Shown here piece after piece: positions 4,398 through 63,696 of a stretch of 64,000 bases of DNA. A program made the position numbers and the translations under genes. The stretch covers positions 1-64,000 of IMG/VR virus record IMGVR_UViG_3300016665_000824. One strand, 5' to 3'. Every line of letters begins with the position of its first letter. The first letter of the stretch is position 1. The notes below the pieces were generated by a model. It was not told where the DNA came from and searched no databases. It was given only the letters and a program-made list of their open reading frames with translations. Source of the stretch: a virus.

Positions 4398-4435
4398 CAA
4401 CCCTTTTAGTAAGCTTACGAATTTGCGTAGCTTAC
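4398..4435 (+). terminator. 16-bp perfect stem hairpin after ORF 3453-4394
   Basis: TTTTAGTAAGCTTACG aatttg CGTAGCTTACTAAAA read directly. Confidence 0.55.
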
Positions 4436-4475
4436 TAAAAGGTTGATTATCGTAAACATTAAATTAGTAATCATC

Positions 4476-4730
4476 ATGACAGAACAACAAAAAAATTGGC
4501 GAATTTCCATTGGTATTCATCGCGGTACGATGACGAGTCGCGACAACAATCTAGTGTACGAACACTTTGACGATCCGACAAAGCCCTTAATCTCTCTTGA
4601 GGAGTGTCGCGAGACAGCTAAAAAGTGGGAAGAAAGCTACCACTCTATGGGCTACTTCATCTGGTTTGGCACAGCCATCTCTCCAGATGGCGAACCTACA
4701 GACGTTTTGCAGGGTGCGCCATATCGTTAA
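4476..4730 (+). CDS. hypothetical protein
   Basis: ORF; ATG at 4476 chosen over upstream TTG 4443. Confidence 0.5.
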   Translation: MTEQQKNWRISIGIHRGTMTSRDNNLVYEHFDDPTKPLISLEECRETAKKWEESYHSMGYFIWFGTAISPDGEPTDVLQGAPYR

Positions 4731-16748: not shown

Positions 16749-16864
16749 ATGAATTGACTTTTGAGCGCGATCGCTGCCATAATACTCCCACAAACTTATG
16801 TTAAATCGAATATTACTGGCAGGCGATCGCCTTAGCCTTGCTTTGAAAAACTTAGGAGAATCTT

Positions 16865-22323: not shown

Positions 22324-22363
22324 AATACGTCACAGATCTAATTAGATCTGTGACGTATTTTTG
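22324..22363 (+). terminator. strong intrinsic terminator: 36-nt perfect palindrome (16-bp stem) followed by a T5 run
   Basis: AATACGTCACAGATCTAATTAGATCTGTGACGTATT + TTTT read directly. Confidence 0.75.
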
Positions 22364-24565: not shown

Positions 24566-24895
24566 ATGCTAGACCCAAAAACTTTAGAGCAAATCAAGCA
24601 GACATCTACCGCCGCCCAGCAAGTCCCAAAAGTCATTGCAATTGAAATCGGAATTGGATTTCGTTTTGGTAAGGTTGTTGTAGGCTCTCCAACTGAGAAG
24701 GAGCTTATTAAGGACTTGTCAACCCAGCTTGAGTGGGACTACAAGGAAGGAGGAACAACAGATGTTGAAGTGATGTACCGAACTCTGTGCGAGTTTAAAA
24801 ATCCTGAAGATGCCGTTTCCGTAGGAGATGCTATTAAGCGGGATCTTACAAGTAAAGGATATCAAATCAAGTCGAAAGACAAGACCTACCAATAA
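24566..24895 (+). CDS. hypothetical protein
   Basis: ATG after GGAGG; last + strand gene before the convergent terminator. Confidence 0.6.
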   Translation: MLDPKTLEQIKQTSTAAQQVPKVIAIEIGIGFRFGKVVVGSPTEKELIKDLSTQLEWDYKEGGTTDVEVMYRTLCEFKNPEDAVSVGDAIKRDLTSKGYQIKSKDKTYQ

Positions 24896-24896
24896 C

Positions 24897-24924
24897 AAAA
24901 GCCCGTCAATATTGACGGGCTTTT
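24897..24924. terminator. bidirectional intrinsic terminator between convergent gene blocks
   Basis: AAAA GCCCGTCAATATTGACGGGC TTTT: 20-nt perfect palindrome flanked by A4 and T4. Confidence 0.7.
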
Positions 24925-24942
24925 GTGCTATTCAGATCAGAA

Positions 24943-34935: not shown

Positions 34936-34951
34936 AATTCAGATCTGAATT

Positions 34952-36403
34952 TTAATAATTCCAGTCAAGGGATTCGTAAACCAGAGTCATCGACTCGATC
35001 AGCTTCTCCGCGCCGACAAAGTATTCCTTCCCAGACGGCGTAGCGCCAATCAGGTAACAGTTTCTCAGTGTCGCGCCAAGCAAGCTAATTGTTCTCACTG
35101 CGGGGGTAGATCCTTTTGACAGGGCGGTGCGAGATGCGTTAGCTAGCGATCGCCATGCAATCACATCACTCGCTTTAACCCCTGACAACCCCAATGTTAC
35201 TGATTGGCGAGCGAGGGCTACCTGTGTTTGCACTCCATTGCGATTAAGGAGGATCTGTGAGTTATCGGCATCGGCAAAAGAGATCGAATCAACCTCATAG
35301 CCATCGAAGAAGTTTGCTGCGCCCGCACCCGTTTGATCGTAAGACCAATATTTGCTGATAAATTCAAGCTGGGTTGATGCTCGTATTTCCCGCCCGCTTA
35401 CGGTTACGGTTTCTGAAGGAGTGACATTAGTAAGAATTGCCGAGGGGATTGTGTAGCCAGCAACAGTTAACGAGATGACTTCAGGATTAAGAGCATCGGC
35501 AACATTTTCGACCTTGTGGATATAGTTGACTGCATATTCTGCGGGTGTGCCAATTACCGAGAAGGATATCCGCCGCTTAAAGGTTGGGACTTCGCGACGA
35601 CCCGAACCTGCTTGGTTAATTACAAATATCTTTGTATCAGCGCCAACATTAATATTCGCGATCGGGTAGCCATCGAAAGTCCCCTGAGAGAATGGGACAT
35701 CATAATTTCGAGTTTCATATTCAAGCACCAGTGCATCACTAATTTTGCCCAGCCCCGTAGTAATCGAAGCGGTCGGTGTTACTGATGTCAGTACTGCATT
35801 ACTTAAAGTAATACCGCCAATAGTAATGTCTTCAGTTAGTGGCGCAAGCAGGTCTGTATTCAGTAAGTTTAAAAATTTCTGATAGTCGGCTGGTGAAGTA
35901 CCTTTCAGGGTAATCGTCACCTTGCGGCGCTTAACTACGGCAGTACGAACTATGCCTGCATCGGCATACTGGACGCTAATCGAATCACCATCACCGAACT
36001 GAACCCCGTCTAACTCGACCGTATAACCTTTAAAGTGGTCGAAGGCTACACCATGCGTCCAAGTATTACTTTCGTAGAGCAGTCTTAAAGTCTCAACTAT
36101 TTGAGCTTCACCTACCTGCAAAATACCCGTTATTTCTGCGGAGACAAGGCGACATCCCGACAAACTGCGTCCACCATAGGAGATACTGTCACGGAGATCA
36201 GATCCTGCTTCTGCTGCGGACTGATAGTAAAGAACGTCGGCATCTGAGACCCCAGTAATGGTTATCCCGATGTTTGGGCGATAAGCCTTGAATTTTTGGA
36301 GCGTAGACCCGTCCTGCTTGGTGAATTCCCTAGACTCCGCCTCGCCAAACTGAATACCATCTGGCGCGATCGCAAATCCATCAAATTGTAAAAGCGAAAT
36401 CAT
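34952..36403 (-). CDS. putative tail structural protein (483 aa)
   Basis: ORF in tail module. Confidence 0.7.
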   Translation of the reverse strand: MISLLQFDGFAIAPDGIQFGEAESREFTKQDGSTLQKFKAYRPNIGITITGVSDADVLYYQSAAEAGSDLRDSISYGGRSLSGCRLVSAEITGILQVGEAQIVETLRLLYESNTWTHGVAFDHFKGYTVELDGVQFGDGDSISVQYADAGIVRTAVVKRRKVTITLKGTSPADYQKFLNLLNTDLLAPLTEDITIGGITLSNAVLTSVTPTASITTGLGKISDALVLEYETRNYDVPFSQGTFDGYPIANINVGADTKIFVINQAGSGRREVPTFKRRISFSVIGTPAEYAVNYIHKVENVADALNPEVISLTVAGYTIPSAILTNVTPSETVTVSGREIRASTQLEFISKYWSYDQTGAGAANFFDGYEVDSISFADADNSQILLNRNGVQTQVALARQSVTLGLSGVKASDVIAWRSLANASRTALSKGSTPAVRTISLLGATLRNCYLIGATPSGKEYFVGAEKLIESMTLVYESLDWNY

Positions 36404-36409
36404 TGGCGC

Positions 36410-36455
36410 ATCAAAAAGGCGATCGCTTTATTTAATGTGCGATCGCCTTTTTGAT
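36410..36455 (-). terminator. 17-bp perfect stem hairpin built from two HIP1 sites (attenuator/terminator candidate)
   Basis: ATCAAAAAGGCGATCGC ... GCGATCGCCTTTTTGAT between the 80-aa and 483-aa genes. Confidence 0.45.
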
Positions 36456-36472
36456 ATTTAATTGTTGCGGAA

Positions 36473-36715
36473 TTAGGAAGCCTTGAGACCCTCCAATACG
36501 ATCTGAGATTCTTCGAGCATCTGACGATCGCCTGTTCGCTGGCAGATATAAAAATAGCTGTCAGCATCATAATCATATAAACGCCGCTTGATCGTATAAG
36601 ACTTATTGGCGTACAAAATCCTTGTTCCTAGTTGGTATTTGGGAATTCCAATCGCGTAGCTTGCACTTTTTGCTGTCATATTGTGTTCGTGGGGATATCG
36701 CCACAAATCTACCAC
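36473..36715 (-). CDS. hypothetical small protein (80 aa; 68 aa if ATG 36679 is used)
   Basis: GTG start lies inside the CCACAAA motif pair; internal ATG may be the real start. Confidence 0.45.
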   Translation of the reverse strand: MVDLWRYPHEHNMTAKSASYAIGIPKYQLGTRILYANKSYTIKRRLYDYDADSYFYICQRTGDRQMLEESQIVLEGLKAS

Positions 36716-36718
36716 AAA
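36701..36718. promoter_or_regulatory. CCACAAA-N4-CCACAAA direct-repeat motif (operator candidate)
   Basis: same architecture at 59935-59952 and, reverse-complemented, at 63679-63696. Confidence 0.5.
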
Positions 36719-36787
36719 AATAGGTTAAAATAATTTATTCGCCGCAGCGTTGTAGCGCTCGGCGTGTGAATCACCAACCATAACTTA

Positions 36788-37321
36788 GTGACTACACATA
36801 TGATACGAGCAATTCGTGCAATCGTCGAGCTTGATGATTTTTCTTTCGATGCGTACCAAATGCCAGACGGTGAAAAGCGCATTGGGTTTTTGGGAGCTTC
36901 CAACGTTTTAGGCTATGCTGACAACTGGTTGGGCAGGTTACATAAAGGCGATTCTCGGCAGCTAAAGGCTATACAGGGTATGGGTTATAGCGGCTTACAA
37001 ACCGAGGTCGAAATCATTCAACGGGGTAGGGAGATTAGCGCCTACGGGACTCGTGCAAATACTATCTCTCTTCGGGATTTTATTAAACTTGTAACTTATG
37101 AGGCTATCAAGAAAACAAATACCCGCGCAATTACTATTCTTGCCTCAATGGCTGAGTTTGGTTTTGAGCAAGTCATTGACATGGCTTTTGCTGGCAACCC
37201 AATGGATGAAATCCTTTCAAAGATCGTTCACTTTAGTCTATGGACTCAAGAAGAATGGGAGCAAGCTTTGGCGGATAACAGGGAAGACTTAGCTAATTTG
37301 CGACTTGGGATGTGGCGATAA
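36788..37321 (+). CDS. opposite-strand moron gene inside tail module; hypothetical protein (177 aa)
   Basis: only + strand gene within the 35-kb minus operon; bracketed by bidirectional terminator and the CCACAAA motif region; start GTG 36788 or ATG 36800. Confidence 0.6.
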   Translation: MTTHMIRAIRAIVELDDFSFDAYQMPDGEKRIGFLGASNVLGYADNWLGRLHKGDSRQLKAIQGMGYSGLQTEVEIIQRGREISAYGTRANTISLRDFIKLVTYEAIKKTNTRAITILASMAEFGFEQVIDMAFAGNPMDEILSKIVHFSLWTQEEWEQALADNREDLANLRLGMWR

Positions 37322-37351
37322 GGTAACAAGGACTTGAGTCCTTGTTACCTT
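37320..37351. terminator. bidirectional terminator hairpin (14-bp stem) between convergent moron and tape-measure genes
   Basis: AAGGTAACAAGGAC ttga GTCCTTGTTACCTT; both stop codons lie in or at the stem. Confidence 0.65.
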
Positions 37352-40300
37352 ACTCCGCTAGTAACACCCGCTACTCGTCTCAAGACATTATTAAGCGTGT
37401 CATTAACAGCCTTCTGGACATCATTGCCCACACCCGCCGCAGAACTAATGTTGCTTTGAGTATTGATAGCGATCGGGGCATTAACCGTAATATTTCCACT
37501 TGTACCCAGAGCCGCACCCGTAGGATTGCCCTGTTGCTGAGGAACAAGATCTTTACCGCCAAGACTACCGAAAGCCTGCGCCAATGCCTCCGCTCTTTGA
37601 AGTTGTCCTTCGTCAAGCAAGGCGATCGGCTTGTCGAGTTTCTTCTGGGCTTCCTCAAATGCCTTGTCGTCGATCTTCAATGTCACGGGGTTCTCGGAGA
37701 TTTGCTTCGACACACGGTTAAATTCCGCTTCCAGTCCTGCGGTTAAATCTTTAACCTTGAGATCTGGGGCAACCAACACCTTGGAGAAGCCTTCATCGAT
37801 TTGCTGAGTTAACTTGTCGAACGAAGACGCGATCGCCTGTTCTGGCTTTGCTTCCTCCGTAGGTTTGCCACCGTACTTAGCGTTAAGCTCCTCAAACGAG
37901 TTGGCTTGAGCAGGATACTTCTTGTTAAGCTCCTCAAAGCTGCCTGCCATGCCCTTGTCGGGATATTTCTTGGCTAACTCCTCAAAGCTAGTAGCGAACG
38001 GTGCGTTATCAGGCTTTGGTTCGGGTGCAGCCGTAAATACTCCGCCCTGCTCAACCTGCCCAAGCAATGCCGAGGTGGGGTTCTTAAACGAAGCACCGCG
38101 AACATTAACAGGTTGGCTTGCCGCAGCCACAGCATTACTTACATCCGTGGTAGTCAATGCTGCTGTACCCGTATTTTGAGTTAAGCGAGCAAGCTGCTCT
38201 CGTTGTAGGCGCTCTTGCAGCGCAGGATCTCTAGTTGCGCCAATAACATCGCCGATCGCCGTATTAGTTTCGCCTTGCTGTTTATTGGCAAGAGCTTGAC
38301 GATCATTCTTGTTGACAATCTCGTTAACCTTGGCTTCGTCGGCAATGAAACCCTTTTCTTGCTGCAATCCACCCAATTCAAGAAAGTTCTTCTCCTGTCC
38401 AAGCTTGGCTTGAGCAAGTTTAAGCTTCGCCTCTTCGGACTGGGGACGTAGTTTAACCTCCAACTCGGCGGCTTTGATAGCAGCATCCTGTGAGGCAATG
38501 TCCACCTTCTTCTTGGCGATCGCGATTTCATTTTCGACCTTCTTGCGTTCAAGCAATAGGTCACGCTTCTGGATTTCCCGCTCCAAGGACTCGGCTTCAA
38601 ACTTTTGCTGTTGCTTGAGGGAATTAAGCTTAAGAACGGCAAGTTTTTCCGCAAGAATCAGCTTTTTCTCTTCGAGTTCGAGATCGGCAAAGTTGCCCTG
38701 ACCACCTGCGGCACGGATGGCAGCTTGTTGGCGATCGTAGATCTTGTTGAGAGCAGCAAACTCTGACTCGCGTAATGCCACTGTAGACTGGGCAAGTTTA
38801 TTTGCCGACTCGGATAGGCGGCTTTGATTCTCAAGCCCCTTTTCTAGTGCGGTGAATAATAGTTTTTGACGTTCAAGCTTGAGGTTTTGCTGCTCAATCG
38901 TGACCGCATACTTTTGTGATTCCAAGACTAGGCGATCGCGCACTGCGGAAACTAATCCTTCAATCGCCGCGAGTTCGGCTTCAGCGAGCTGTTTGGATAG
39001 TTCAGCAACCTTGATTAGATTAGCGTTCTTAGTTTCCTTGCTAACACCAACGCCCTTCTTCTCAAGATCGGCGATCGCCTTCTGCTTTTGTTGTTCGAGT
39101 TGCAGCTCTAAAGTGATACTGCGTTTACGTTCGGCAGTTTCTTGAAGCTTAATTTCAGATTCAAGCTTAATTCCCGACTTGCGGAGTTGAGCTATCTGAG
39201 CAAGACGCTGAGTCTCGCCAACCTTTTCGGCGGCAAGGGTCTCCTTAATCTGTGCATCCAATCCCTTAACAAAGCGCTCGGAACGGGCTTTGGCTATTTT
39301 TGCCTCAGCGTCCTTCCGTTTGTTGTCGGCATCCTCTTCTAATCGCGCTTTCTGGGCGGCGGTAGCCTTAACTAGATCAAGCTCTTTTTTGTTTGCGTCA
39401 GCAATAGAGTTTTTCGCCAAGTTTTGACGTTCGGCATCTGGCTTTGCGATTGAGGAAAGTTGATCCCTCTTTGTCTGCAACGTCCGAAGTTCAGACTCTT
39501 TCTTGGCGATCGCGTCCTGTTCCGCCTTGATCTGTGCGGTGTACTCCGAGGAATTAAAAAATGGCGCGTCTTTTACGGTGTTGAATCGCTGTAATGTCTC
39601 CGCATTCCCAGCTTTCAGACTAGACAAGGCTTTTTCCCCATCTTCAATCTGCTTCGTAATTCCCTCTAGCTGTCCCTGAGTATCCTCTGACAACTTTAAG
39701 GTGCTATCCAAGGTTCCTTTCTGGCTCTGGAGGCTATTAAGTCTTGATTGCAACACAGCAAGCTCGTCCGTTACTTTCTTAACGTCCTCGGCAGCGTTAT
39801 CTCCCGCAACACCCGTACTTATAGACTCTTGGAGAGCCTTCTTCCTTGCCTCTGCATCTTTGATCTGTTGACTGGTATCGTCGATCTTTCCTTGCAAGAC
39901 AGGAGCTTGAGCTTCCCTGACCTGCCGTATCTTTGAAGGATCTCCAGTTGCAGCAGCTAACTGCGCTTCCGCCAACTCGCGATCGCGCTTAATCTGTTGT
40001 TTCTGCTCATTAGCGTTGGTCTCCAAGATCTGCTGTCTTGCTCTTAGAGCCTTTTGATCGGCTTCAGACTGGGCTTGAATCTTCTTCTCCTCTAATTGTC
40101 CAGAGAGGGCGATCGATTCAGACTCAGAGATTCGCCCCGTGGCGAGCAAAGCTTGAATCTGGGAAAGTTGAGCGTCATAAATAGCTATGCGGCGATCCGC
40201 CTCCTTTTTGTACGCGGCAGTAATCGCTTCTTGAGCCTTTATCTGTAAATCGCGATCGGCAGAGACATTCGTAGCTACTTTTTGAAACGCTCCCGCAACT

Positions 40301-43300: not shown

Positions 43301-45780
43301 AATAGGTATTCTGGAACCTGCCCAAAGATCTGGAAGAATGGCCCCGCGAGACTTTTTAGGGTCGCAATCACGTTCTTGAATACGTCAAACAGTATTCCTG
43401 CGAGACTCCCTACTTGAGCAGCGATCGCGTCTTTATTCTTTGAGAAATACTGGTAAAACCCGTCAAGTTCCGCTACTAAAGGTGCGAGGAATTTCTCCCC
43501 AGCGAGTCTGCCGATCTCATCAACTAGCTCTTGAATATTGCTAACAATCCCACCCACGGACTGAGCAGCTAGCTTGTTTCCAGACTTAAATGCTTCTAAT
43601 CGACCTAAAAGCTCTTTGACGAAGGTTCCTTGAGACTTCCACTTAGCCACCATCTCATTGTTGAGGTTAAGCGATTTGGCAAGAGCTGAGTTTTGGTCAA
43701 TAGTTCCCGAAGTTATACTAACAACCTCTTGACGGGCTTGATATAAAGGTATGCCAAGCGTTCCGAGTGCGGCGGCGAACGAGGTTGTAATATTAGCAGC
43801 GTCATTCAAGGACGCGCCAATGTTGCTTGCCTGCCCAGCAACGATCTGAAAAACCCCGACAAGATCTTTACTGGTTACGCCGACCAGCTCTAACGAGTCT
43901 TTACGAATTTTATCGATCGCCCCTTCAACCGCAGGGCCAACCGCCTTGATCGCTTGAGTTGGATCTGATACGCGATCGCCATTAACTACGATTCTATTGG
44001 TTGCCGCTAAGCTCGCCTGAGTAGAGAGTAGTTGCTCTTGGAGCCTGATGTTTTGCCCAATCAACAGATCGAAAGGGCCGTTTTGTACAAATCCTTGGAG
44101 TGCCTGCAATCCCAATCCCAAGAAAGCAAGTCTCTGAGATACTTCAAAGATCGCGTTGGTTGCCTTGCCAGCACCTTCGCTAATTAGATTGAATACTTCT
44201 AGTGGTTCCGTCGCCCCCGCCACTGGAGCAACCACTGCGGCGGCAATATCTACAGGTTCTTGCAGCTTCGGGGCTATCTCTTGAGTCTTTTGAAACCCCT
44301 TAACGATAACATCATCAACACTATCGATGACAGTACCGACTTCGGCAAGGATTGTTGATCTCAGTCCATCAACAAAATTCTTACCTGCGATCGCGCCAGT
44401 ATCTTTTAAAAGCGAACTAAATGTTCCGCCAAAAAACTCGTCAATCTTGGTTGCAAGTTTTTGCAGTGAGCCATCCCCGCTTCCGATAGAATCAATCGCC
44501 GCGCCCAACCCTCCGTCAATAGCATCGACAGCTTTTAGGGCTAAATTCCTGAGAGGCGCAAGGATGCTAGTATCTTCTACGCTAAACAAGCTATTGAGAG
44601 CCTGTCCAACGCCTCCCTTTTGAGTCTCTATTAAAGGGCGGAGGATGGCAAAAGCGGATCTTAAATCCTCTGGAATTGCTTTTTCTAGTCCATTAAATAA
44701 CTGTCCAGACAACGCATTTCCAAAATCTTGCAACTCATTAGAGGCAACAATCGACCCCAAATTTGCCACCCCGATCTTGTTGGCAATCAGTTTTGCTAGT
44801 GGTGGTAGTGGCAACTTATCTACAAGCTGAGGGATTCGCCCCGCTAGGCGGTTGATCAGCTCAGATACAGAGCCGCCTAACTGTTCGTCAAGAATTTTAA
44901 ATTGATCGGTCGCCTCAGATCTGCTGCCGACGATTGCCCTGCCGACCGATCCTCCTAAAGCGCTAGATAAGCGCCCTACAACTCTTTGTCCGTCCTCAAC
45001 GTTTGGCGCGATTGCGTTAACGGCAAAAGCTTTAGCAGCACCCGATACCGACCCACCAGCCAACTGCTTCGACACTTCCGACAGCAATCCAGTTTTTGCC
45101 GCAGTCCGAAATGAGTTGGCGACAATTGAGGTTAAATCCGCCCCGAAAGCTTGGTTAACAATACCTTTTAAAGCGTCGGGGAGTCCTCCCCCAACAACGC
45201 CCGAAATGAGTGAGTCGGCGATCGCGTTATCTAGCGTTCCAGTAAAAGCCTCAACTCCCACTCCAAGCTTGCGCTGAATTTCTTGATTTAGCTTTGAAGC
45301 CCTAACATTTGCTTCTAACGCTTTACCGAAACTGTTTGCAGAATCGCTAAGTATCTGCGTAATTCTCTTGCCGTTATCCGAAAATATTGCAGACTGAGCT
45401 TGCTCTGCCGACTGCTTAGATAAGAATCCTCCTCCGACATCTTTTCCTGCAGAGGTAATCCCCTTGATTACCTTTGAGAGCGGAGCTAGTTTTGAAACTG
45501 CACTGTCGGCGACATTCGAGATCTGTTCTAAAAATATTTTGCCCGACTGCGTATCTAGTACATCTCGAACCGACTGAATTGCGTCTCTCAGCCCTCCAAA
45601 CGTGCCAATCGCGGTTGCCCCTACCGTGCTGATCGTTCCGCCAAGGGCTTGTACAGATCCCTTTGTTACGTCCGCAACAACACCAACACTTTTTAGACCA
45701 GCAGCTATCTCCGAAACTTGTTTGCTTGCTTGATCTTTCGCCTGTATTAAGATCTCAACAATATTGGTTTGCGGAGCCAT
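37345..45780 (-). CDS. tape measure protein (2811 aa)
   Basis: giant ORF with Gly/Ala-rich hydrophobic N-terminal half and ~1000-aa coiled-coil (Q/E/K/A-rich) half, upstream of baseplate/fibre genes. Confidence 0.75.
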   Translation of the reverse strand: MAPQTNIVEILIQAKDQASKQVSEIAAGLKSVGVVADVTKGSVQALGGTISTVGATAIGTFGGLRDAIQSVRDVLDTQSGKIFLEQISNVADSAVSKLAPLSKVIKGITSAGKDVGGGFLSKQSAEQAQSAIFSDNGKRITQILSDSANSFGKALEANVRASKLNQEIQRKLGVGVEAFTGTLDNAIADSLISGVVGGGLPDALKGIVNQAFGADLTSIVANSFRTAAKTGLLSEVSKQLAGGSVSGAAKAFAVNAIAPNVEDGQRVVGRLSSALGGSVGRAIVGSRSEATDQFKILDEQLGGSVSELINRLAGRIPQLVDKLPLPPLAKLIANKIGVANLGSIVASNELQDFGNALSGQLFNGLEKAIPEDLRSAFAILRPLIETQKGGVGQALNSLFSVEDTSILAPLRNLALKAVDAIDGGLGAAIDSIGSGDGSLQKLATKIDEFFGGTFSSLLKDTGAIAGKNFVDGLRSTILAEVGTVIDSVDDVIVKGFQKTQEIAPKLQEPVDIAAAVVAPVAGATEPLEVFNLISEGAGKATNAIFEVSQRLAFLGLGLQALQGFVQNGPFDLLIGQNIRLQEQLLSTQASLAATNRIVVNGDRVSDPTQAIKAVGPAVEGAIDKIRKDSLELVGVTSKDLVGVFQIVAGQASNIGASLNDAANITTSFAAALGTLGIPLYQARQEVVSITSGTIDQNSALAKSLNLNNEMVAKWKSQGTFVKELLGRLEAFKSGNKLAAQSVGGIVSNIQELVDEIGRLAGEKFLAPLVAELDGFYQYFSKNKDAIAAQVGSLAGILFDVFKNVIATLKSLAGPFFQIFGQVPEYLFKSLAGAVKAFSDAMSLTLAVVQPAINVFEQIAGVVGPLGGIWIGISVGAKVLSGAIGALNKGFSLMFNLVPGLGEVLFLLDKRTNGVVNTFANLSSVVGRGSAGFLLLAENLNKIPGAAGLVQKELGKVLGAFSPFAGVITAALPTLGGFGVKLIGLTQAFPALGTALQGFTKAAPIALTAFSGIVGKSQLFGSFSPLIADAAKSLGKFADVATNTEKVNSIFSNSLKAAGAAARSFAVSTALLGAGTFVGFVFFDQLILKNKGLQKIIQDVTAAIRKFADTVGSVLAPVIKVVADTILPFFTFGENSNPFQKVVGGLLIAIAVTKLFGGTISNVFKTINTGISGAGASIGETFGRIKKLNDSVREILGGKPVQSTTLNPTQVVAAKREVSGLKQQAIVSQKDSTDLSLTPEARAAALKSYQETTDRIKSLRSQIIANPIPVPFTKQFAEDIGAIATKTKTSLKSLGDSIGSFISDIKGRFSQDSSQKTGIFANLPAQIENTKASIRNAFANINIPASLVNLRNGVEKAFSQINVPTSLANARLGLDKFFRELNIPASLANSRIAIDKFVNQVKSISLPDLSLKNLGAGLKTGFQDALSGVKDFGSRAKSSFADFTQNANVSVGGLYSNLKKGAVGATSFISENVKGISKSFAALAAEIGPTLLLSAAFAAITTLVGYVDQETKAATANVDKLNDALKDSDARVAILNKSQGKDAASELANLTSEREKYVASIQDKSILQDDPTLKLYDQQLAKLKELRGLQSKPTNSEDALREKVKKERDNIGTRVTEGFALTGDAAREGLRTVTFGASDKLGLGDRAGNLEEKAVQIRLQDNKNVLNQSASRRVDLGIGLSAQKKLQEDLIKLEQEKSKAEALSDKDGAARFDIQIENKKKEIAERNNNIEAIINQVQAVEGLDAERDRELEALRKLQESYKSVNLQIQAIDLPRIGNAIEQATSKYNAALDALNKSAGDPALFKAKLGELLETANALQDAGILRADEVAGAFQKVATNVSADRDLQIKAQEAITAAYKKEADRRIAIYDAQLSQIQALLATGRISESESIALSGQLEEKKIQAQSEADQKALRARQQILETNANEQKQQIKRDRELAEAQLAAATGDPSKIRQVREAQAPVLQGKIDDTSQQIKDAEARKKALQESISTGVAGDNAAEDVKKVTDELAVLQSRLNSLQSQKGTLDSTLKLSEDTQGQLEGITKQIEDGEKALSSLKAGNAETLQRFNTVKDAPFFNSSEYTAQIKAEQDAIAKKESELRTLQTKRDQLSSIAKPDAERQNLAKNSIADANKKELDLVKATAAQKARLEEDADNKRKDAEAKIAKARSERFVKGLDAQIKETLAAEKVGETQRLAQIAQLRKSGIKLESEIKLQETAERKRSITLELQLEQQKQKAIADLEKKGVGVSKETKNANLIKVAELSKQLAEAELAAIEGLVSAVRDRLVLESQKYAVTIEQQNLKLERQKLLFTALEKGLENQSRLSESANKLAQSTVALRESEFAALNKIYDRQQAAIRAAGGQGNFADLELEEKKLILAEKLAVLKLNSLKQQQKFEAESLEREIQKRDLLLERKKVENEIAIAKKKVDIASQDAAIKAAELEVKLRPQSEEAKLKLAQAKLGQEKNFLELGGLQQEKGFIADEAKVNEIVNKNDRQALANKQQGETNTAIGDVIGATRDPALQERLQREQLARLTQNTGTAALTTTDVSNAVAAASQPVNVRGASFKNPTSALLGQVEQGGVFTAAPEPKPDNAPFATSFEELAKKYPDKGMAGSFEELNKKYPAQANSFEELNAKYGGKPTEEAKPEQAIASSFDKLTQQIDEGFSKVLVAPDLKVKDLTAGLEAEFNRVSKQISENPVTLKIDDKAFEEAQKKLDKPIALLDEGQLQRAEALAQAFGSLGGKDLVPQQQGNPTGAALGTSGNITVNAPIAINTQSNISSAAGVGNDVQKAVNDTLNNVLRRVAGVTSGVR
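37840..37995 (-). repeat. three tandem ~45-nt repeats encoding SFEEL-x-KKYP inside the tape measure gene
   Basis: GCTCCTCAAA recurs three times on + strand; protein repeats SFEELAKKYP / SFEELNKKYP / SFEELNAKYG. Confidence 0.6.
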
Positions 45781-45823
45781 AAGAATAACCGAGAGAGAGT
45801 CTTCTCAGTTATTCTTGTGGGGT

Positions 45824-53085: not shown

Positions 53086-54492
53086 CTATTTTTTAGCTTG
53101 CTTCTGGTTTTCTTCTTCCGCCTTGTTTATGGCGTGGGCTGCGAGAGCTAGAGATCCAGCAGTTGCCGCAACGTTCGCTCCGATCGCGCCAGCAACAGAT
53201 GCTCCGCGACCATGACCACGCGATCGTAAAGCTCTGTAAGTGCCGCTACCGATCGGCCCAGCCAGCGCCTGTACCGCCCCCTTTCCAAAAGCTTTGGCAG
53301 TCTCCCCAGCACAATTCTTTTCTTGAGGAATACAGATCTTTCCGCAAGGCTTAGTACCTGAACCGCACTTTGCGTCTTCACGAAGCTGCTCGACGAATGA
53401 GTCGATGCGCTCATCTAAGGATTCGTATCGACGACTTGTTTTATTCCACACTCTATTTGTAGTCATATTCGCTCTTCTAATTCGTTTTGGCATCTCCCTC
53501 CGAGTTGTTTTAACCTCAGATGCTTTTACGTCTACCGTATTATTCTTGTCAACAAAAGTCTGCATAAAACTTCTAGCGAAATTGTCTACGGCGTTAAGAG
53601 TTGATCGGGTGGTAGATCCCGCCTTTTTTGCCGCCTCGTTTAGGTCGATAGTTTTGTCGGCAAGATTCTTCCTCGCGACGCGATCGCGTTCTAGCCTTTC
53701 TTTTGTTTTTCGATACAACTTACCCGCCGCCGCACCTGCGGAACCAGCAGCTCTTGTTAATAGTGGCTTCTGAGGTTCGGCGATCGCACTACCACTACTC
53801 TTGCCCGATTCACTCGCAGCAATAGTTAATCCACCAGTAGATACCTTGGAAGCAGGAGGGTTGTATGGCAGTCGAGTTGGAGGTGGGGGTGTAGGAGTTT
53901 CAGGTTTATTGACGGGGACTAGTGCTCCACCGATTTCTGGCTTGGGCTTGGGTGATGGAAGGCGATCGGGCGGGGCTAGCCTCCTGCTTTCTATCTCGCC
54001 TTGCCGAGCTGCTTCTCGCTCAAGATCTTTCTTAGCCTTATATCGAAAATACTCCTCTTCTGCCGCAGCTTCCTCTGCTCTCCACCGCGCCCTCCGAGTT
54101 TCGCTATCCTTTTCGCCAGCCTTGTTTGCGCCCTTCTCGATAATGGGGCGAAGACCTACGGTGATGGCTTTATTCGCAATTACACCTGCGCCGAGTGATG
54201 CGGCAGTTCCACCGACCTTGATCGCCGCTTTCTTAGCAAACTCACCAACCTTATTGGGAGGTGACTGAGGAAGTATAGAAGCAGGCTCCGTCACAGGGAT
54301 AGGCTTCTGTTCTTCTGGCTTCTTCCTTAGCGCGATCGCTGCTGCCCCCAACCCACCCAAGGCAAGTGCAGCGCCAACACCCGCAGCCCCTTTCTTTGCT
54401 GCACTGGCATTGCGGAAGTATGAATAAGCCTTACGTCCATTTTGCGCTGGGACTTTAACTTCTACCTGTGCGTCCTGTCTTTCAGTACTCAT
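53086..54492 (-). CDS. modular protein (468 aa) with Gly/Ala-zipper helix, Pro-rich linker and C-terminal Cys motif
   Basis: GAAGVGAALALGGLGAAAIA near N-terminus; PSPKPKPE...PETPTPPPPTRLP linker; CGSGTKPCGKICIPQEKNCAG; ATGA coupling. Confidence 0.75.
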   Translation of the reverse strand: MSTERQDAQVEVKVPAQNGRKAYSYFRNASAAKKGAAGVGAALALGGLGAAAIALRKKPEEQKPIPVTEPASILPQSPPNKVGEFAKKAAIKVGGTAASLGAGVIANKAITVGLRPIIEKGANKAGEKDSETRRARWRAEEAAAEEEYFRYKAKKDLEREAARQGEIESRRLAPPDRLPSPKPKPEIGGALVPVNKPETPTPPPPTRLPYNPPASKVSTGGLTIAASESGKSSGSAIAEPQKPLLTRAAGSAGAAAGKLYRKTKERLERDRVARKNLADKTIDLNEAAKKAGSTTRSTLNAVDNFARSFMQTFVDKNNTVDVKASEVKTTRREMPKRIRRANMTTNRVWNKTSRRYESLDERIDSFVEQLREDAKCGSGTKPCGKICIPQEKNCAGETAKAFGKGAVQALAGPIGSGTYRALRSRGHGRGASVAGAIGANVAATAGSLALAAHAINKAEEENQKQAKK

Positions 54493-54875
54493 CTGTTTGG
54501 CATCCTCGTTAAAATAATTTCCCAGCTAAAACTTTTGTTCTCAATAGTCCCCATTACCTCATTACACTTGATCGAACCATCGACAATGTAATACTTGCCC
54601 TTGCCCGTAAGCTGAGCCTCGGTGTATGCCGCAGATATACCGCTCACCTGATAGTCGTCAATACCAACCTTGATATTAGTGCTTTCAAACAAGGCGACAG
54701 TACGAGGGTTAACCCGTAGAATCGTGGGGTGAGGCAATATCTCTAGCCTTGTTTCTCCCGACGTAGTGCGAGTCACTACTGTTAATGGCAGCACATTAGG
54801 CGCACCGATCGCATCTCCTGCTAGGCGATCGCGCAGTGGTTGAAGTTTGGCAATAATCTTTGAGGCTAGTGACAT
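54489..54875 (-). CDS. hypothetical head-tail region protein (128 aa)
   Basis: ORF. Confidence 0.6.
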   Translation of the reverse strand: MSLASKIIAKLQPLRDRLAGDAIGAPNVLPLTVVTRTTSGETRLEILPHPTILRVNPRTVALFESTNIKVGIDDYQVSGISAAYTEAQLTGKGKYYIVDGSIKCNEVMGTIENKSFSWEIILTRMPNR

Positions 54876-54902: not shown

Positions 54903-54939
54903 AACAGGCGATCGCTTGATGAATTAGCGATCGCCTGTT
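54903..54939 (-). terminator. 13-bp perfect stem hairpin built from two HIP1 sites (intra-operon attenuator candidate)
   Basis: AACAGGCGATCGC ttgatgaatta GCGATCGCCTGTT. Confidence 0.45.
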
Positions 54940-54968: not shown

Positions 54969-55388
54969 CTAGAAGGCAATGAATGGTGGCACGGCAGGGA
55001 TACTGTCACCCATAAAACCGCCCGTTAGAACCAATTCCTTAAGCATTAGAAATTGCTGCCCATAGGTGGTTCGAGATAGATACACATCGGAGAATCTGCC
55101 ATTACCGTTTGCGGGGGTGGAGGTTCTCCGATTAGACATAGACTCACCAGTGTCGATCGCCTTAGCATTTGACACAGTGACAGTACCTTCCTCGGTATTG
55201 AGCGCCAAATAGTGAGCAGTCAGCAACATTACCGCCATTTCCGCATTGTCACCCCACTCTTCAATCGAGCAAAACCGCGAATAGAAATTCAGCCAGTTCT
55301 GGATAAAGATCAGCGACTCCCCAACAAAGTCAGAGAATGCTGCCTCGGAAGTGAAAGTATCTGCGGAAACGACGGGGTATGTTGCCAT
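54969..55388 (-). CDS. putative head-tail connector/adaptor-like protein (139 aa)
   Basis: size and position; ...MAVMLLTAHYLAL segment resembles phage head-tail adaptor families (weak). Confidence 0.55.
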   Translation of the reverse strand: MATYPVVSADTFTSEAAFSDFVGESLIFIQNWLNFYSRFCSIEEWGDNAEMAVMLLTAHYLALNTEEGTVTVSNAKAIDTGESMSNRRTSTPANGNGRFSDVYLSRTTYGQQFLMLKELVLTGGFMGDSIPAVPPFIAF

Positions 55389-56467: not shown

Positions 56468-56478
56468 AATTCAATAGA

Positions 56479-56518
56479 TATAAAAATATCGAGCGCAGGT
56501 ATTCCCACGCTCGATATT
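56479..56518 (-). terminator. intrinsic terminator/attenuator immediately downstream of putative major capsid gene
   Basis: 11-bp perfect stem (AATATCGAGCG / CGCTCGATATT), 12-nt loop, then TTTTTATA on the transcribed strand. Confidence 0.65.
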
Positions 56519-56528: not shown

Positions 56529-57440
56529 TTACAATCCGTGCAACCAGAGTACGGAGTAGGGACGCTTGATAATCAAGCCGCCGTACTTCATACGGGCGGT
56601 GCGCTGCATCCCACGAGGAAGCTCAATCCACTTCTTGAAGGAGAAAGGCTCGGTAATGCGGAACTTGATTTTGTTCGGATCGCGCTTGTAGTAACAAGCA
56701 ACGTTAGAACCGCCATCACCAACACCTTCGAGAGGGAGTAAGGGGAAGTAATCCTTAATGTAAGTTGCCTTACTCAAGTAGTAATCAAGAACAGAATCAC
56801 TGTTGAAGTCACTGAGACGACGGAAGCTGATTTCATCGTGAGTTGCCTGAGCAAACAAGATCGTGTCAGGGGTCTCAATATTGCGGGTCAAACGACGCAT
56901 GGCGTTGCCAGTGTTGTTCAATACCGCAAGAAGCTGAGCTACCGTAGCATTGCTGTCAAAAGCGTATGCAGAGTAGGACTTCAAAGTATCAGGATGGTTG
57001 AAGAAACCGCGCAATTGACCGTCACCCAAGAACACCATCTTGTCGAGGTATTGTTGACCTGCTTCAAGCACGATCTGGACTTTTTCCGCCTCAATGCCAG
57101 TACCAAACTTTTGAGAAAGTTCGATTTCTTTGTCATTAAGGGTATAAGCACCAATATGCTCAGAAACTCTTTGGCGGAATTCTCTCGACACGATCTCGAC
57201 GTTAGGAACGTGAGTGGTGTAGTCGCGAGCAGCTTCCCACCGACCGATACCAGTTACCTTGCGATAGCCAGTTTCTTCGAGTTCAGGTTTGTTCCAATCT
57301 TCGCGAGGAAGGAGAGTGCCGTTAGCCCAGTAAAGCTGTTCGTACTCTTCTTTTTCGAGAGACTGTTCTAGTTCGACGAGCTGCTCTTTGAAGTAGCCCA
57401 CCGACCAATCATCATTCTTAATTTCAGTAGCTGTGGTCAT
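56529..57440 (-). CDS. putative major capsid protein (303 aa)
   Basis: start refined to ATG 57440 (GGAGGAG upstream); track ORF N-terminal 96 aa is readthrough overlapping the upstream gene; abundance terminator follows. Confidence 0.6.
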   Translation of the reverse strand: MTTATEIKNDDWSVGYFKEQLVELEQSLEKEEYEQLYWANGTLLPREDWNKPELEETGYRKVTGIGRWEAARDYTTHVPNVEIVSREFRQRVSEHIGAYTLNDKEIELSQKFGTGIEAEKVQIVLEAGQQYLDKMVFLGDGQLRGFFNHPDTLKSYSAYAFDSNATVAQLLAVLNNTGNAMRRLTRNIETPDTILFAQATHDEISFRRLSDFNSDSVLDYYLSKATYIKDYFPLLPLEGVGDGGSNVACYYKRDPNKIKFRITEPFSFKKWIELPRGMQRTARMKYGGLIIKRPYSVLWLHGL

Positions 57441-59934: not shown

Positions 59935-59952
59935 CCACAAATCCACCACAAA
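59935..59952. promoter_or_regulatory. CCACAAA-N4-CCACAAA motif in divergent control region
   Basis: CCACAAATCCACCACAAA between the virion operon start (59827) and + strand regulator (59991). Confidence 0.5.
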
Positions 59953-62786: not shown

Positions 62787-62823
62787 TCGGTTAAGCGTGG
62801 GTAGCCACGACGCTTGTTCAAGG

Positions 62824-62862
62824 CAATAAAAAAGGAGTCCAATTGAGACTCCTTTTTTATTG
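62824..62862. terminator. bidirectional terminator (16-bp perfect stem with A6/T6 tracts) between convergent genes
   Basis: CAATAAAAAAGGAGTC caattga GACTCCTTTTTTATTG. Confidence 0.7.
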
Positions 62863-62869
62863 CTGTAGT

Positions 62870-63678: not shown

Positions 63679-63696
63679 CTTGTGGCGATTTTGTGG
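63679..63696. promoter_or_regulatory. TTGTGG-N4-TTTGTGG motif (reverse-complement form of the CCACAAA pair) upstream of the final partial gene
   Basis: CTTGTGGCGATTTTGTGG in the gap between the Rha-like gene and ORF starting 63727. Confidence 0.45.

What the first reader, a model, noticed from the sequence alone, without database searches (positions are those of the whole stretch)
36410..36455. HIP1 pairs forming long perfect hairpins inside the structural operon
At 36410-36455 (17-bp stem) and 54903-54939 (13-bp stem), two HIP1 sites with complementary flanks form perfect hairpins in intergenic gaps of the minus-strand operon. Together with the terminator after the capsid gene (56479-56518) these may set the stoichiometry of head, adaptor and tail proteins by partial termination or RNA processing.
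Basis: seen in the sequence. Interest (0 to 1): 0.45.

Follow-up and report, generated by a model that had tools for sequence, protein, structure and literature searches.

The report
HIP1-built terminator hairpins in a cyanophage
Two perfect hairpins made from pairs of the cyanobacterial HIP1 palindrome sit between structural genes of an uncultured cyanophage and most likely act as leaky transcription terminators or RNA-stabilising stem-loops, which is a fairly ordinary phage device built from an unusual local building block.

Summary
A 17-bp perfect stem lies at 36410-36455. A 14-bp stem (not 13) lies at 54903-54939. A canonical terminator follows the capsid gene (stem 56485-56518 plus U-tract).

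Close HIP1 pairs are not enriched in the window. However, the two closest pairs are the only ones with complementary flanks.

Both hairpins are conserved in related metagenomic phages. The 75 nt around hairpin 1 are far more conserved than synonymous sites.

Stem changes mostly keep pairing. There is one G-C to A-U swap, and several G.U wobbles that pair only in the sense RNA. Single HIP1 copies decay while the stem persists, so selection acts on the stem, not on HIP1.

In other relatives, unrelated canonical terminators occupy the same positions. The same A-tract/HIP1-pair/T-tract design sits at gene 3' ends in cyanobacterial genomes.

All three gaps are hot spots for inserted accessory genes.

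Best reading: sense-strand, intrinsic-terminator-type stem-loops that must be leaky, because essential genes follow with no room for a promoter.

The stoichiometry idea is plausible but untested. Hairpin 1 carries extra conservation (loop, upstream 23 nt, 6 nt to the ATG), which hints at a further leader function.

This is a new member of a known kind, of modest interest.

The parts
36410..36455 (-). Hairpin 1. A HIP1 pair with A5/T5 flanks forms a 17-bp perfect stem with a 12-nt loop (sense RNA loop ACAUUAAAUAAA). It starts 17 nt after the stop of a small ORF, and its 3' end is 6 nt from the ATG of the 483-aa gene.
   Evidence: sequence and fold. (conserved in L002-L010). (96% of cells paired). 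(conservation against 4-fold sites).
36404..36478 (-). Conserved 75-nt block around hairpin 1: 23 nt upstream (CCTRATTYCGCAAYAATCRAAYA), the hairpin, and GCGCCA before the ATG. It is single copy in the window.
   Evidence: alignment; 57 of 75 columns are invariant in six lineages against 19% of 4-fold sites, P about 2e-26. (no other copies).
54903..54939 (-). Hairpin 2. A HIP1 pair forms a 14-bp perfect stem with a 9-nt loop, and the sense-strand tail is UUUGCUUGU. It lies 29 nt after the stop of the DUF4054 gene and 27 nt before the ATG of the 128-aa gene.
   Evidence: (relatives: a G-C to A-U swap and a G.U wobble). (93% of cells paired)..
56476..56518 (-). Canonical intrinsic terminator after the major capsid gene. 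The 15-pair stem is at 56518-56485 and the U-tract UUUUUAUAU is at 56484-56476.
   Evidence: 100% of cells paired in four lineages, 6 of 15 pairs vary, 2 with changes on both sides; replaced by a different T12 terminator in L183, L184 and L186.
37319..37352 (-). A 15-16-bp perfect hairpin that overlaps the stop codon of the 2811-aa gene. Relatives have an unrelated strong hairpin at this position, and in L009/L010 hairpin 1 itself occupies it.
34952..36403 (-). The 483-aa gene that starts 6 nt after hairpin 1. The model shows four tandem beta-sandwich-plus-helix repeats, and the best fold matches are tail-tube and baseplate proteins (weak).
36473..36715 (-). Small ORF upstream of hairpin 1. 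Its likely start is the ATG near 36676, giving 67 aa. It is part of the variable accessory-gene region and is preceded by a TTGTGG-N5-TTGTGG motif at 36701-36717.
   Evidence: (68-aa homologue in L007).
36788..37321 (+). Opposite-strand accessory gene (173-177 aa) inside the structural block. It lies in the variable region between the giant gene and hairpin 1.
   Evidence: the gene caller calls it. (different genes at this place in relatives).
54969..55388 (-). DUF4054 / E217_gp27-family gene (139 aa), upstream of hairpin 2. It is probably a head-completion or adaptor protein.
   Evidence: weak PDB match to a head completion protein, E = 0.077.
54489..54875 (-). The 128-aa gene downstream of hairpin 2. 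It is the first gene of the block that runs to the giant gene.
56529..57440 (-). Major capsid protein gene.
   Evidence: phrog_264. (33% identity to the CL131 and PaV-LD capsid proteins). (PF09950 in homologues).
24895..24926 (.). Reference case in the same genome: a bidirectional terminator at a convergent gene junction (ACAAAAGCCCGTCA-atat-TGACGGGCTTTTGT). It has the same A-tract / GC stem / T-tract design as hairpin 1.
62823..62863 (.). Second reference bidirectional terminator at a convergent junction (GCAATAAAAAAGGAGTC...GACTCCTTTTTTATTGC).

Best explanation
The two HIP1-pair hairpins are stem-loops of the intrinsic-terminator type that act in the sense (minus-strand) transcript of the late structural operon, as does the canonical terminator after the capsid gene.

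**Proposed mechanism.** Each hairpin forms just after a stop codon. A GC-rich core made of two HIP1 copies is followed by a U-rich tail. A fraction of RNA polymerases stop there, and the hairpin left at the 3' end protects the upstream message. The remaining polymerases read through into the next gene block.

**Why it must be leaky.** The next essential gene starts 6 nt (hairpin 1) or 27 nt (hairpin 2) downstream, so no promoter fits in between. The long loops (12 and 9 nt) and the interrupted U-tract of hairpin 2 fit weak termination.

**Role of HIP1.** HIP1 is only the raw material. In a genome with 2.1 HIP1 sites per kb, two nearby copies give a ready-made 8-bp GC stem, which selection then extended through the flanks.

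**Shown here:**
- the structures exist and are conserved;
- pairing is maintained across relatives;
- their orientation matches the operon;
- canonical terminators occupy the same positions in relatives.

**Inferred:** actual termination, its efficiency, and any effect on protein ratios.
For: **1. Architecture.** Hairpin 1 is A5 + GGCGATCGC + loop + GCGATCGCC + U5. This is the same design as the two unambiguous terminators at convergent junctions in this genome, 24895-24926 and 62823-62863. Both hairpins start 17-29 nt after a stop codon.

**2. Conservation.**
- Hairpin 1 is present in all nine relative loci (L002-L010), whose neighbouring-gene products are 79-96% identical to the window's, whatever gene lies upstream.
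- Block identity is 89-93%, while third codon positions are 46-77% identical.
- 57 of 75 block columns are invariant against 19% of 4-fold sites.

**3. Pairing is kept.**
- 96% and 93% of cells are paired.
- Hairpin 2 has a G-C to A-U double change in L013/L014/L016.
- Four of five independent transitions give G.U in the sense RNA, which would be A.C on the other strand.
- L008 loses 3 of the 4 outermost pairs, leaving a 13-bp stem, but lengthens the U-tract.

**4. HIP1 is dispensable.** One copy is GCGATTGC (L009/L010), GTGATCGC (L184/L186) or GCGCTCGC (L187/L188), and the stem is retained.

**5. Positional equivalence with canonical terminators.**
- L015 and L183/L185 have AAAAGCCCTAGAGA-loop-TCTCTAGGGCTTTT exactly where hairpin 2 begins.
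- Most lineages have a strong hairpin of unrelated sequence right after the giant gene (none is obvious in L003/L004). In L009/L010 that hairpin is hairpin 1.
- L011 has an A8/T8 hairpin there.

**6. The motif elsewhere.** AAAAGGCGATCGC-N3-14-GCGATCGCCTTTT occurs in about 30 cyanobacterial genomes, including Pseudanabaena. About 35 of the 43 sites lie within 100 nt of a gene's 3' end. Similar non-coding cases occur in HIP1-rich viral contigs L053, L058/L059 and L116.

**7. Internal terminators are normal in this operon.** The capsid terminator is fully paired in four lineages, shows compensatory changes, and is replaced by another canonical terminator in L183, L184 and L186.

**8. Precedent.** Phage terminators located inside 5' UTRs, giving either short transcripts or read-through transcripts, were mapped by ONT-cappable-seq (PMC10914365).
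Against: - No transcript data are available.
- The loops of 12 and 9 nt exceed the usual 3-8 nt, and the consensus terminator scan did not report either hairpin.
- The U-tract of hairpin 2 is interrupted (UUUGCUUGU).
- Covariation is thin: one pair with changes on both sides per hairpin, and the shuffle controls are not significant with 5-6 sequences.
- L002/L003 carry an A.C mismatch in the sense strand of hairpin 1, and L187 carries a U.C mismatch in hairpin 2.
- The loop (TTAAAT-AA), the 23 nt upstream and the 6 nt before the ATG of hairpin 1 are all significantly conserved. A simple terminator does not require this.
- A stable hairpin 6 nt from an ATG with no Shine-Dalgarno sequence could equally serve translation control.
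Confidence: 0.55

Rival explanations
1. For hairpin 1 specifically, the 75-nt block is a 5'-leader control element of the 483-aa gene rather than a terminator for upstream genes. The hairpin, its conserved loop and the flanking sequence would bind a phage or host factor, or would gate ribosome access to an ATG that has no Shine-Dalgarno sequence. The effect would be to set translation or mRNA 5'-end stability of the baseplate-like module.
For: - Every segment of the block is conserved far above neutral expectation: the loop (8 of 12 columns invariant, P = 4e-4), the upstream 23 nt (P = 1.6e-6) and the 6 nt before the ATG (6 of 6).
- The block always travels with the 483-aa gene, whatever lies upstream.
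- The distance from hairpin to ATG is fixed at 6 nt with invariant GCGCCA.
- In the window and in L012, the genes immediately upstream are on the other strand. Transcription of the 483-aa gene must therefore restart nearby, which places the hairpin in a leader.
- A TTGTGG-N5-TTGTGG motif lies about 250 nt upstream.
Against: - In L009/L010 the block directly follows the giant gene, which is the classic position of a terminator.
- Relatives at 52-58% identity have unrelated hairpins about 95-160 nt upstream of the ATG, followed by a different conserved leader. The hairpin-next-to-ATG layout is therefore not general.
- The A5/U5 flanks are invariant or strengthened, as expected for a terminator.
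- No candidate binding protein and no promoter could be identified.
Confidence: 0.2
2. The hairpins do not terminate transcription. They act only after transcription, as processing or stability elements. They would be RNase III/E targets or barriers to 3' exonucleases, like REP stem-loops in enterobacterial operons, and would give the operon segments different half-lives.
For: - The long perfect duplexes (17 and 14 bp) with large loops look more like nuclease substrates or barriers than like efficient terminators.
- Hairpin 2 lacks a clean U-tract.
- Nearly every gap longer than 40 nt in the late block holds a stem-loop, and several have no U-tract, for example 37319-37352 and 45777-45820.
- There are 21 perfect hairpins against 3.2 expected, and 15 of them are intergenic.
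Against: - Hairpin 1 has a conserved U5 run and A5 run, and L008 extends the U run while losing 3 of the 4 outermost pairs.
- The elements that replace the hairpins in relatives are textbook terminators with T4 to T12 runs.
- The same HIP1-pair design in bacterial genomes carries A and T tracts and sits at gene ends.
- This reading overlaps with the best explanation rather than excluding it.
Confidence: 0.15
3. The hairpins matter at the DNA level or not at all. They could be by-products of HIP1 spread, or cruciform or single-strand hairpin sites that attract recombination and transposition. In that case their link with variable regions would be the real biology, and any effect on transcripts would be incidental.
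For: - All three hairpin gaps are insertion hot spots in relatives. Inserted genes include ANT/Bro-N, WDGH, small ORFs, opposite-strand genes and a TnpB/IS605 OrfB gene.
- In L183/L185 the insertion junction cuts the 5' arm of hairpin 2.
- Sequence similarity between relatives breaks off sharply about 25-30 nt upstream of hairpin 1.
Against: - Strong purifying selection on the block, compared with 4-fold sites, rules out a neutral by-product.
- G.U wobbles that pair only in the sense RNA, and the strand-specific U-rich tail of hairpin 2, point to RNA.
- The hairpin units are single copy and are not dispersed like a mobile element.
- Close HIP1 pairs are not enriched.
- Insertions next to terminators are what the classical 'moron' pattern predicts without any special DNA site (own knowledge of Hendrix-type morons).
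Confidence: 0.1

Closest known systems
Intrinsic (Rho-independent) terminators, including bidirectional ones and leaky internal terminators of phage late operons (for example the terminator after the major capsid gene in T7-like phages; own knowledge)
   Same: - GC-rich stem right after a stop codon.
- U-rich tail on the transcribed strand.
- For hairpin 1, an A-tract mirrors the U-tract, as in bidirectional terminators.
- Placement after the capsid gene and between structural modules.
- Read-through is needed for the downstream genes.
- Relatives carry interchangeable, unrelated terminator sequences at the same spots.
   Different: - The stem core is two copies of the HIP1 octamer.
- The loops are long (12 and 9 nt).
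- The U-tract of hairpin 2 is interrupted.
- The loop of hairpin 1 and its flanks are conserved, which ordinary terminators do not need.
- No termination has been measured.
REP/BIME repetitive extragenic palindromes of enterobacteria acting as intercistronic mRNA stabilisers (own knowledge; REPs are mentioned in PMC5861425)
   Same: A genome-wide over-represented palindrome provides intergenic stem-loops inside operons. These could protect upstream RNA segments and tune relative expression.
   Different: - HIP1 is an 8-mer found mostly inside genes, not an extragenic unit.
- Only 3 close pairs exist in 64 kb, and only 2 have extended stems.
- The hairpin units are single copy.
- No REP-associated transposase link was seen.
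Moron organisation of phage late operons (accessory gene with its own promoter and terminator inserted between structural genes; own knowledge) and PeSL promoter/stem-loop cassettes of T4-type phages (PMC2839356)
   Same: Variable accessory genes sit exactly at the hairpin-bearing gaps. They bring their own terminators, and a recurrent upstream motif (TTGTGG-N5-TTGTGG) accompanies them.
   Different: - The HIP1 hairpins belong to the conserved backbone, not to the inserted genes. L009/L010 have hairpin 1 and no insert.
- They are not repeated cassettes, so PeSL-style recombination between copies does not apply.
Terminators inside 5' UTRs of phage genes that give short or read-through transcripts (ONT-cappable-seq of Pseudomonas phages, PMC10914365)
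   Same: Hairpin 1 lies in what must be the leader of the 483-aa gene. It could switch between a short upstream transcript and read-through.
   Different: Nothing here has been mapped experimentally, and the phage and its host are unrelated to those in that study.

Membership tests
Intrinsic (Rho-independent) terminator | Stable GC-rich stem | tested here: met
   The 17-bp and 14-bp perfect stems have 9-10-bp GC-rich cores. Fold energies are -28.4 and -35.0 kcal/mol (the latter for the 91-nt segment with flanks), z = -6.1 and -4.9.
Intrinsic (Rho-independent) terminator | Short loop (about 3-8 nt) | tested here: not met
   The loops are 12 nt (hairpin 1) and 9 nt (hairpin 2). For this reason the consensus scan with loop 3-8 missed both. 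The capsid terminator has a 4-nt loop and was found.
Intrinsic (Rho-independent) terminator | U-tract directly 3' of the GC stem on the transcribed strand | tested here: inconclusive
   Hairpin 1 has CCUUUUUGAU, invariant U5, extended to U6 in L008. That meets the feature, although the U's pair with an A-tract. Hairpin 2 has CCUGUUUGCUUGU, which is U-rich but interrupted, with UUGUUUG conserved.
Intrinsic (Rho-independent) terminator | Position just downstream of a stop codon, in the gene's orientation | tested here: met
   The hairpins start 17 nt and 29 nt after stop codons of minus-strand ORFs. The same HIP1-pair design in genomes lies within 100 nt of a gene's 3' end in about 35 of 43 cases.
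Intrinsic (Rho-independent) terminator | Transcripts actually end at the U-tract | not testable with these tools
   No RNA data are available. Term-seq, 3'-RACE or in vitro transcription is needed.
Intrinsic (Rho-independent) terminator | Functional replaceability: unrelated terminators at the same position in relatives | tested here: met
   L015 and L183/L185 carry AAAAGCCCTAGAGA..TCTCTAGGGCTTTT at the hairpin 2 site. L011 has an A8/T8 hairpin. Unrelated hairpins follow the giant gene in most lineages. There is also terminator turnover after the capsid gene.
HIP1 (highly iterated palindrome 1) | GCGATCGC octamer, strongly over-represented in the genome | tested here: met
   135 sites against 1.24 expected. 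Each hairpin holds two exact copies.
HIP1 (highly iterated palindrome 1) | The motif itself, rather than the pairing, is what is conserved in the hairpins | tested here: not met
   One copy is degenerate in L009/L010 (GCGATTGC), L184/L186 (GTGATCGC) and L187/L188 (GCGCTCGC), while the stem is kept through wobble pairs or extension.
REP-like or MITE-like dispersed palindromic element | The same hairpin unit repeated at many intergenic sites | tested here: not met
   The block upstream of hairpin 1 has 1 match in the window. Hairpin 1 with its loop is found only in the two known relatives in IMG/VR. The two hairpins share only HIP1.
PeSL-type mobile regulatory cassette | A repeated promoter-plus-stem-loop cassette flanking variable genes on both sides | tested here: not met
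   The block is single copy. The other side of the variable region carries unrelated hairpins. No sigma-70-like promoter was found in the block.
Known structured RNA family (Rfam) | A match to a curated covariance model | tested here: not met
   No match at gathering thresholds anywhere in the window, and no tRNA.

The most novel reading that the evidence does not exclude
The 75-nt block around hairpin 1 is not a plain terminator. It would be a dedicated cis-acting control element of this phage lineage, for example an RNA or DNA hairpin whose conserved loop (UUAAAU.AA) is read by a phage factor. That factor would couple terminator read-through or antitermination to expression of the baseplate-like module. 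The hairpin-bearing gaps would also serve as preferred landing sites for accessory genes, including a TnpB/IS605 element.
Probability: 0.12. Interest if true: 0.6.

Novelty: new member of a known kind. Interest (0 to 1): 0.3.

Why it matters
**For phage biology.** The result gives a concrete, testable map of where the late transcript of an uncultured, roughly 135-kb cyanophage lineage is likely to be attenuated: after the capsid gene, after the head-completion genes, and after the giant tail gene. It also shows that these same points are where accessory genes are gained and lost.

**For the HIP1 question.** It offers a small but clear example in which HIP1 copies have been co-opted as the stem of a selected RNA structure. 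Selection visibly acts on the pairing and not on the motif. This fits the published view that HIP1 has no general transcript-level role (PMC5861425), while showing a local exception.

It does not overturn anything. Internal leaky terminators and insertions next to terminators are standard features of phage genomes.

Tried and rejected
**Searches that found nothing**
- DNA search of the hairpin 1 region against 50,697 cultured phage records: no match.
- tblastn of the 483-aa and 468-aa proteins against the same set: no match.
- The search for related loci with the 468-aa protein: no relatives.
- PDB sequence searches for the 468-, 483- and 128-aa proteins: nothing.
- Foldseek of the 483-aa model: only non-significant tube and baseplate matches.
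- Rfam and tRNA scans: empty.

**Searches that yielded little**
- The capsid query found only 5 loci in the viral and JGI metagenome collections.

**Promoter search**
- No sigma-70-like promoter fits inside the hairpin 1 block or between either hairpin and the next ATG.
- The one promoter-like hit, at 36414-36385, would start transcription inside the conserved coding sequence, so it was rejected.

**Overlapping ORF**
- The 58-aa ORF at 36400-36576 that reads through hairpin 1 could have explained the conservation. It was rejected because L007 has an in-frame stop and relatives have no conserved start (read by eye).

**Dispersed element**
- A MITE- or REP-like dispersed element was rejected because the units are single copy.

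**Enrichment of close HIP1 pairs**
- Rejected: 3 observed against 4.9 expected.

**Broad viral-contig pattern**
- GGCGATCGC-N3-16-GCGATCGCC mostly hit coding regions of high-GC phages by chance. Only a few HIP1-rich contigs were informative.

**Literature**
- Searches found no description of HIP1 pairs as terminators or of HIP1 in cyanophage operons.

**Covariation statistics**
- Not significant, because only 4-6 distinct sequences were available.
Full report
**What is in the sequence**

- Hairpin 1: ATCAAAAAGGCGATCGC (36410-36426) pairs perfectly with GCGATCGCCTTTTTGAT (36439-36455) across a 12-nt loop.
- Hairpin 2: AACAGGCGATCGCT (54903-54916) pairs perfectly with AGCGATCGCCTGTT (54926-54939) across a 9-nt loop.
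- After the capsid gene, the minus strand carries a 15-pair stem (56518-56485) followed by UUUUUAUAU.
- As RNA, the sense strand folds at -28.4 kcal/mol (86-nt segment with hairpin 1), -35.0 (91-nt segment with hairpin 2) and -26.8 (71-nt segment with the capsid terminator). The z-scores are -6.1, -4.9 and -4.6, and no shuffle folds as well.

**Is it more than chance?**

- GCGATCGC occurs 135 times in 64 kb against 1.2 expected.
- With that density, close pairs are not surprising. Three lie within 25 nt against 4.9 expected under random placement.
- What is not expected is complementarity beyond the octamers. Of 22 neighbouring pairs within 100 nt, only these two have flank complementarity of 2 bp or more, extending 9 and 5 bp. 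Across all pairs of sites, P(>=5) is 0.0023 and P(>=9) is about 1e-4.
- The third close pair (63626/63648) has no complementary flanks.

**Context**

- The window comes from a 134-kb metagenomic contig (ENA ERZ27292652 k141_20893).
- It looks like a large uncultured cyanophage. Its capsid protein is 33% identical to those of Aphanizomenon phage CL131 and Planktothrix phage PaV-LD. There is no DNA or protein match for the other genes tested among cultured phages.
- Minus-strand structural genes run from 59827 down to 24943. In order they are:
  1. a DUF2213 protease, a cement-like protein and the capsid gene;
  2. the capsid terminator;
  3. three small genes ending with a DUF4054/E217_gp27 protein, which has a weak match to a head-completion protein;
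  4. hairpin 2;
  5. eight genes ending with a 2811-aa gene;
  6. a short variable region;
  7. hairpin 1;
  8. a 483-aa gene and further large genes.
- The 483-aa protein is predicted as four tandem beta-sandwich-plus-helix repeats (pLDDT 71). Its best fold matches, though non-significant, are all tail-tube or baseplate proteins.

**Hairpins are a general feature of the window**

- There are 21 perfect hairpins (stem of at least 9 bp, loop 3-16 nt) against about 3 expected.
- Fifteen of them lie in the 10% of the sequence that is intergenic.
- Only three of those fifteen are HIP1 pairs.
- Two non-HIP1 hairpins sit at convergent gene junctions (24895-24926 and 62823-62863) and are textbook bidirectional terminators with an A-tract, a GC stem and a T-tract. 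Hairpin 1 has exactly this design, with the stem made of GGCGATCGC.

**Relatives of hairpin 1**

- Homologues of the 483-aa protein led to loci L002-L012, L181 and L182.
- All nine loci L002-L010, whose 483-aa products are 79-96% identical to the window's, keep the hairpin at the same place, 6 nt (GCGCCA) before the ATG.
- The genes upstream are completely different: ANT/Bro-N genes, a WDGH gene, small ORFs, opposite-strand genes, or, in L009/L010, the giant gene itself.
- The 72-nt block is 89-93% identical, while third codon positions of the adjacent gene are 46-77% identical.
- Across six lineages, 57 of 75 block columns are invariant against 19% of four-fold sites (P about 2e-26). Each part is individually significant: the upstream 23 nt, both arms, the loop core TTAAAT-AA and the six bases before the ATG.
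- Stem changes:
  - L007 has T-A changed to G.U (both sides changed).
  - L009/L010 have a broken 5' HIP1 copy (GCGATTGC), which gives U.G, plus an outer U.G.
  - L008 loses 3 of the 4 outermost pairs, leaving a 13-bp stem, but lengthens the U run.
  - L002/L003 have an A.C mismatch.
  - Overall 96% of cells pair.

**Relatives of hairpin 2 and of the capsid terminator**

- Loci came from the capsid query and from DUF4054 homologues.
- L013/L014/L016 carry a compensatory G-C to A-U change.
- L184/L186 have a degenerate 3' copy (GTGATCGC) that gives a G.U wobble in the sense RNA.
- L187/L188 have GCGCTCGC (one U.C mismatch), but the stem is extended by an A-U pair.
- 93% of cells pair.
- The arms and the 33 nt upstream are conserved above the neutral rate. 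The loop and the 27 nt before the ATG are not.
- The capsid terminator pairs in 100% of cells in four lineages. Six of its 15 pairs vary, two of them on both sides.
- With only 4-6 distinct sequences, the shuffle controls are not significant. I treat covariation as supportive, not as proof.
- Four of five independent transitions in the two HIP1 stems give G.U in the sense RNA and A.C on the other strand. This is suggestive only (binomial P about 0.19, my calculation).

**Positional equivalence, the strongest comparative argument**

- In L015 and L183/L185, a canonical terminator (AAAAGCCCTAGAGA-loop-TCTCTAGGGCTTTT) sits exactly where hairpin 2 begins in the window. It is followed by an inserted opposite-strand gene.
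- In L183/L185 a truncated 8-bp remnant of hairpin 2 still precedes the 128-aa gene.
- After the stop of the giant gene, most lineages have a strong hairpin of unrelated sequence; none is obvious in L003/L004, where a TTGTGG motif lies there. In L006 it is a 22-bp stem built from two degenerate HIP1 copies. In L011 it is an A8/T8 stem. In L009/L010 it is hairpin 1 itself.
- After the capsid gene, L183, L184 and L186 carry a different terminator with a T9-T14 run.
- So the function 'stem-loop after this gene' is conserved while the sequence turns over. This is how terminators behave.

**The same design elsewhere**

- A scan of one genome per species (185,579 species) for AAAAGGCGATCGC-N3-14-GCGATCGCCTTTT found 43 places.
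- About 30 are in cyanobacteria, including Pseudanabaena biceps and Pseudanabaena sp. 'Roaring Creek'. The latter assembly also holds a contig with a 52%-identical homologue of the 483-aa gene.
- About 35 of the 43 lie within 100 nt of a gene's 3' end, often between convergent genes.
- A few are in non-cyanobacteria, which shows that GGCGATCGCC is simply a good stem.
- In HIP1-rich viral contigs, L053, L058/L059 and L116 show the same non-coding A-tract / HIP1 pair / T-tract layout.
- The motif is rare, roughly one per genome at most. It is an occasional use of HIP1, not the function of HIP1. This agrees with Xu et al., who found no transcript-level role for HIP1 in general (PMC5861425).

**Why termination must be leaky**

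- Hairpin 1 ends 6 nt before the ATG of a conserved, presumably essential gene.
- Hairpin 2 ends 27 nt before the next ATG, and the capsid terminator stem ends 17 nt before the next ATG.
- No sigma-70-like promoter fits in these spaces.
- Therefore either polymerases read through at a useful rate, or late transcription is made terminator-resistant by a factor I could not identify.
- Strong canonical terminators have been inserted at these points in relatives without loss of the downstream genes. This points the same way.

**What does not fit a plain terminator**

- The loops are long.
- The U-tract of hairpin 2 is interrupted.
- Above all, the loop and flanks of hairpin 1 are conserved.
- In the window, the gene just upstream of the small ORF is on the opposite strand (36788-37321). 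An exact TTGTGG-N5-TTGTGG motif lies at 36701-36717. The same motif occurs upstream of the first late gene (59935-51) and of a plus-strand gene (63680-96).
- Transcription of the 483-aa gene may therefore restart there, which would put hairpin 1 in a leader.
- Terminators inside phage 5' UTRs that yield either short or read-through transcripts have been mapped in other phages (PMC10914365). I keep a leader-control role for hairpin 1 as the main rival.

**Insertion hot spots**

- This is the familiar 'moron' pattern, with insertions tolerated next to terminators.
- The hairpins themselves belong to the backbone and are single copy. I therefore do not read them as mobile cassettes.

**Verdict**

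The elements are selected, sense-strand, terminator-type stem-loops that probably attenuate and stabilise segments of the late transcript.
- HIP1 is the building material rather than the point.
- The effect on protein stoichiometry is untested.
- This is a new member of a known kind, of modest interest. One loose end is worth an experiment: the fully conserved block around hairpin 1.

Noticed in passing
window 36701-36717 (-), 59935-59951 (-), 63680-63696 (+); weaker copies at 1173-1214 and 16777-16793; also L183 about 4030-4050 and L003/L004 just after the giant gene: A direct-repeat motif, TTGTGG-N5-TTGTGG, usually followed by nnnTAT. It has 3 exact copies and 14 copies with up to 2 mismatches, against 4.2 expected. 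Each exact copy lies in an intergenic region about 25-110 nt upstream of a gene in the same orientation. In relatives the motif accompanies inserted accessory genes. It is a candidate phage promoter or operator.
   Followed up: partly
window 36404-37344 and the homologous regions of L003-L012; also the gaps after the capsid gene and after the DUF4054 gene in L015 and L183-L186: Three hypervariable accessory-gene ('moron') sites lie inside the structural operon. Depending on the relative, they hold ANT/Bro-N genes, a WDGH gene, small ORFs, opposite-strand genes, or a 408-aa TnpB / IS605 OrfB gene.
   Followed up: partly
window 45777-45820: A hairpin with 18-nt arms (89% complementary) fills the 43-nt gap before the 2811-aa gene and includes its ATG (…GGTTATTCTTATG). 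It could limit translation initiation of the giant protein.
   Followed up: no
window 34936-34951 and 22324-22359: The whole 16-nt gap between the 483-aa and 283-aa genes is a perfect palindrome, AATTCAGATCTGAATT. A 36-bp perfect palindrome with the same AGATCT centre lies at 22324-22359 in the early region. Several further AGATCT-centred imperfect palindromes were listed.
   Followed up: no
window 2000-4700, especially 2373-2600: This segment is richer in G+C (0.53 against about 0.46) and unusually dense in strong local hairpins. Three adjacent stem-loops lie in an apparently non-coding stretch at 2373-2600. There is no Rfam or tRNA match.
   Followed up: no
whole window: HIP1 density is 2.1 per kb. 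That is at least as high as in the Pseudanabaena contigs fetched (about 1.6-1.75 per kb) and is spread over both coding strands. It suggests long co-evolution with a HIP1-rich host.
   Followed up: no
L006 about 235-290 (just after the giant gene): A 22-bp perfect hairpin, AAATAACAAGAAAGGCGATCAC-cgt-GTGATCGCCTTTCTTGTTATTT, is built from two HIP1 copies that are degenerate in a mutually compensating way. This is another case where pairing is kept while the HIP1 sequence is not.
   Followed up: no
window 60479-60501 (+): An exact HIP1 copy (GCGATCGC, 60478-60485) and a degenerate partner (GCGATCGT) form a 9-11-bp stem with a 5-nt loop, followed by TATTGTT. The structure lies inside the 3' end of the ORF at 59991-60554.
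   Followed up: no
window 34952-36403 (-): The 483-aa protein is predicted as four tandem repeats of a beta-sandwich-plus-helix module of about 120 aa that resembles tail-tube or baseplate-initiator domains. It has no sequence match in Pfam, the PDB or cultured phages.
   Followed up: partly
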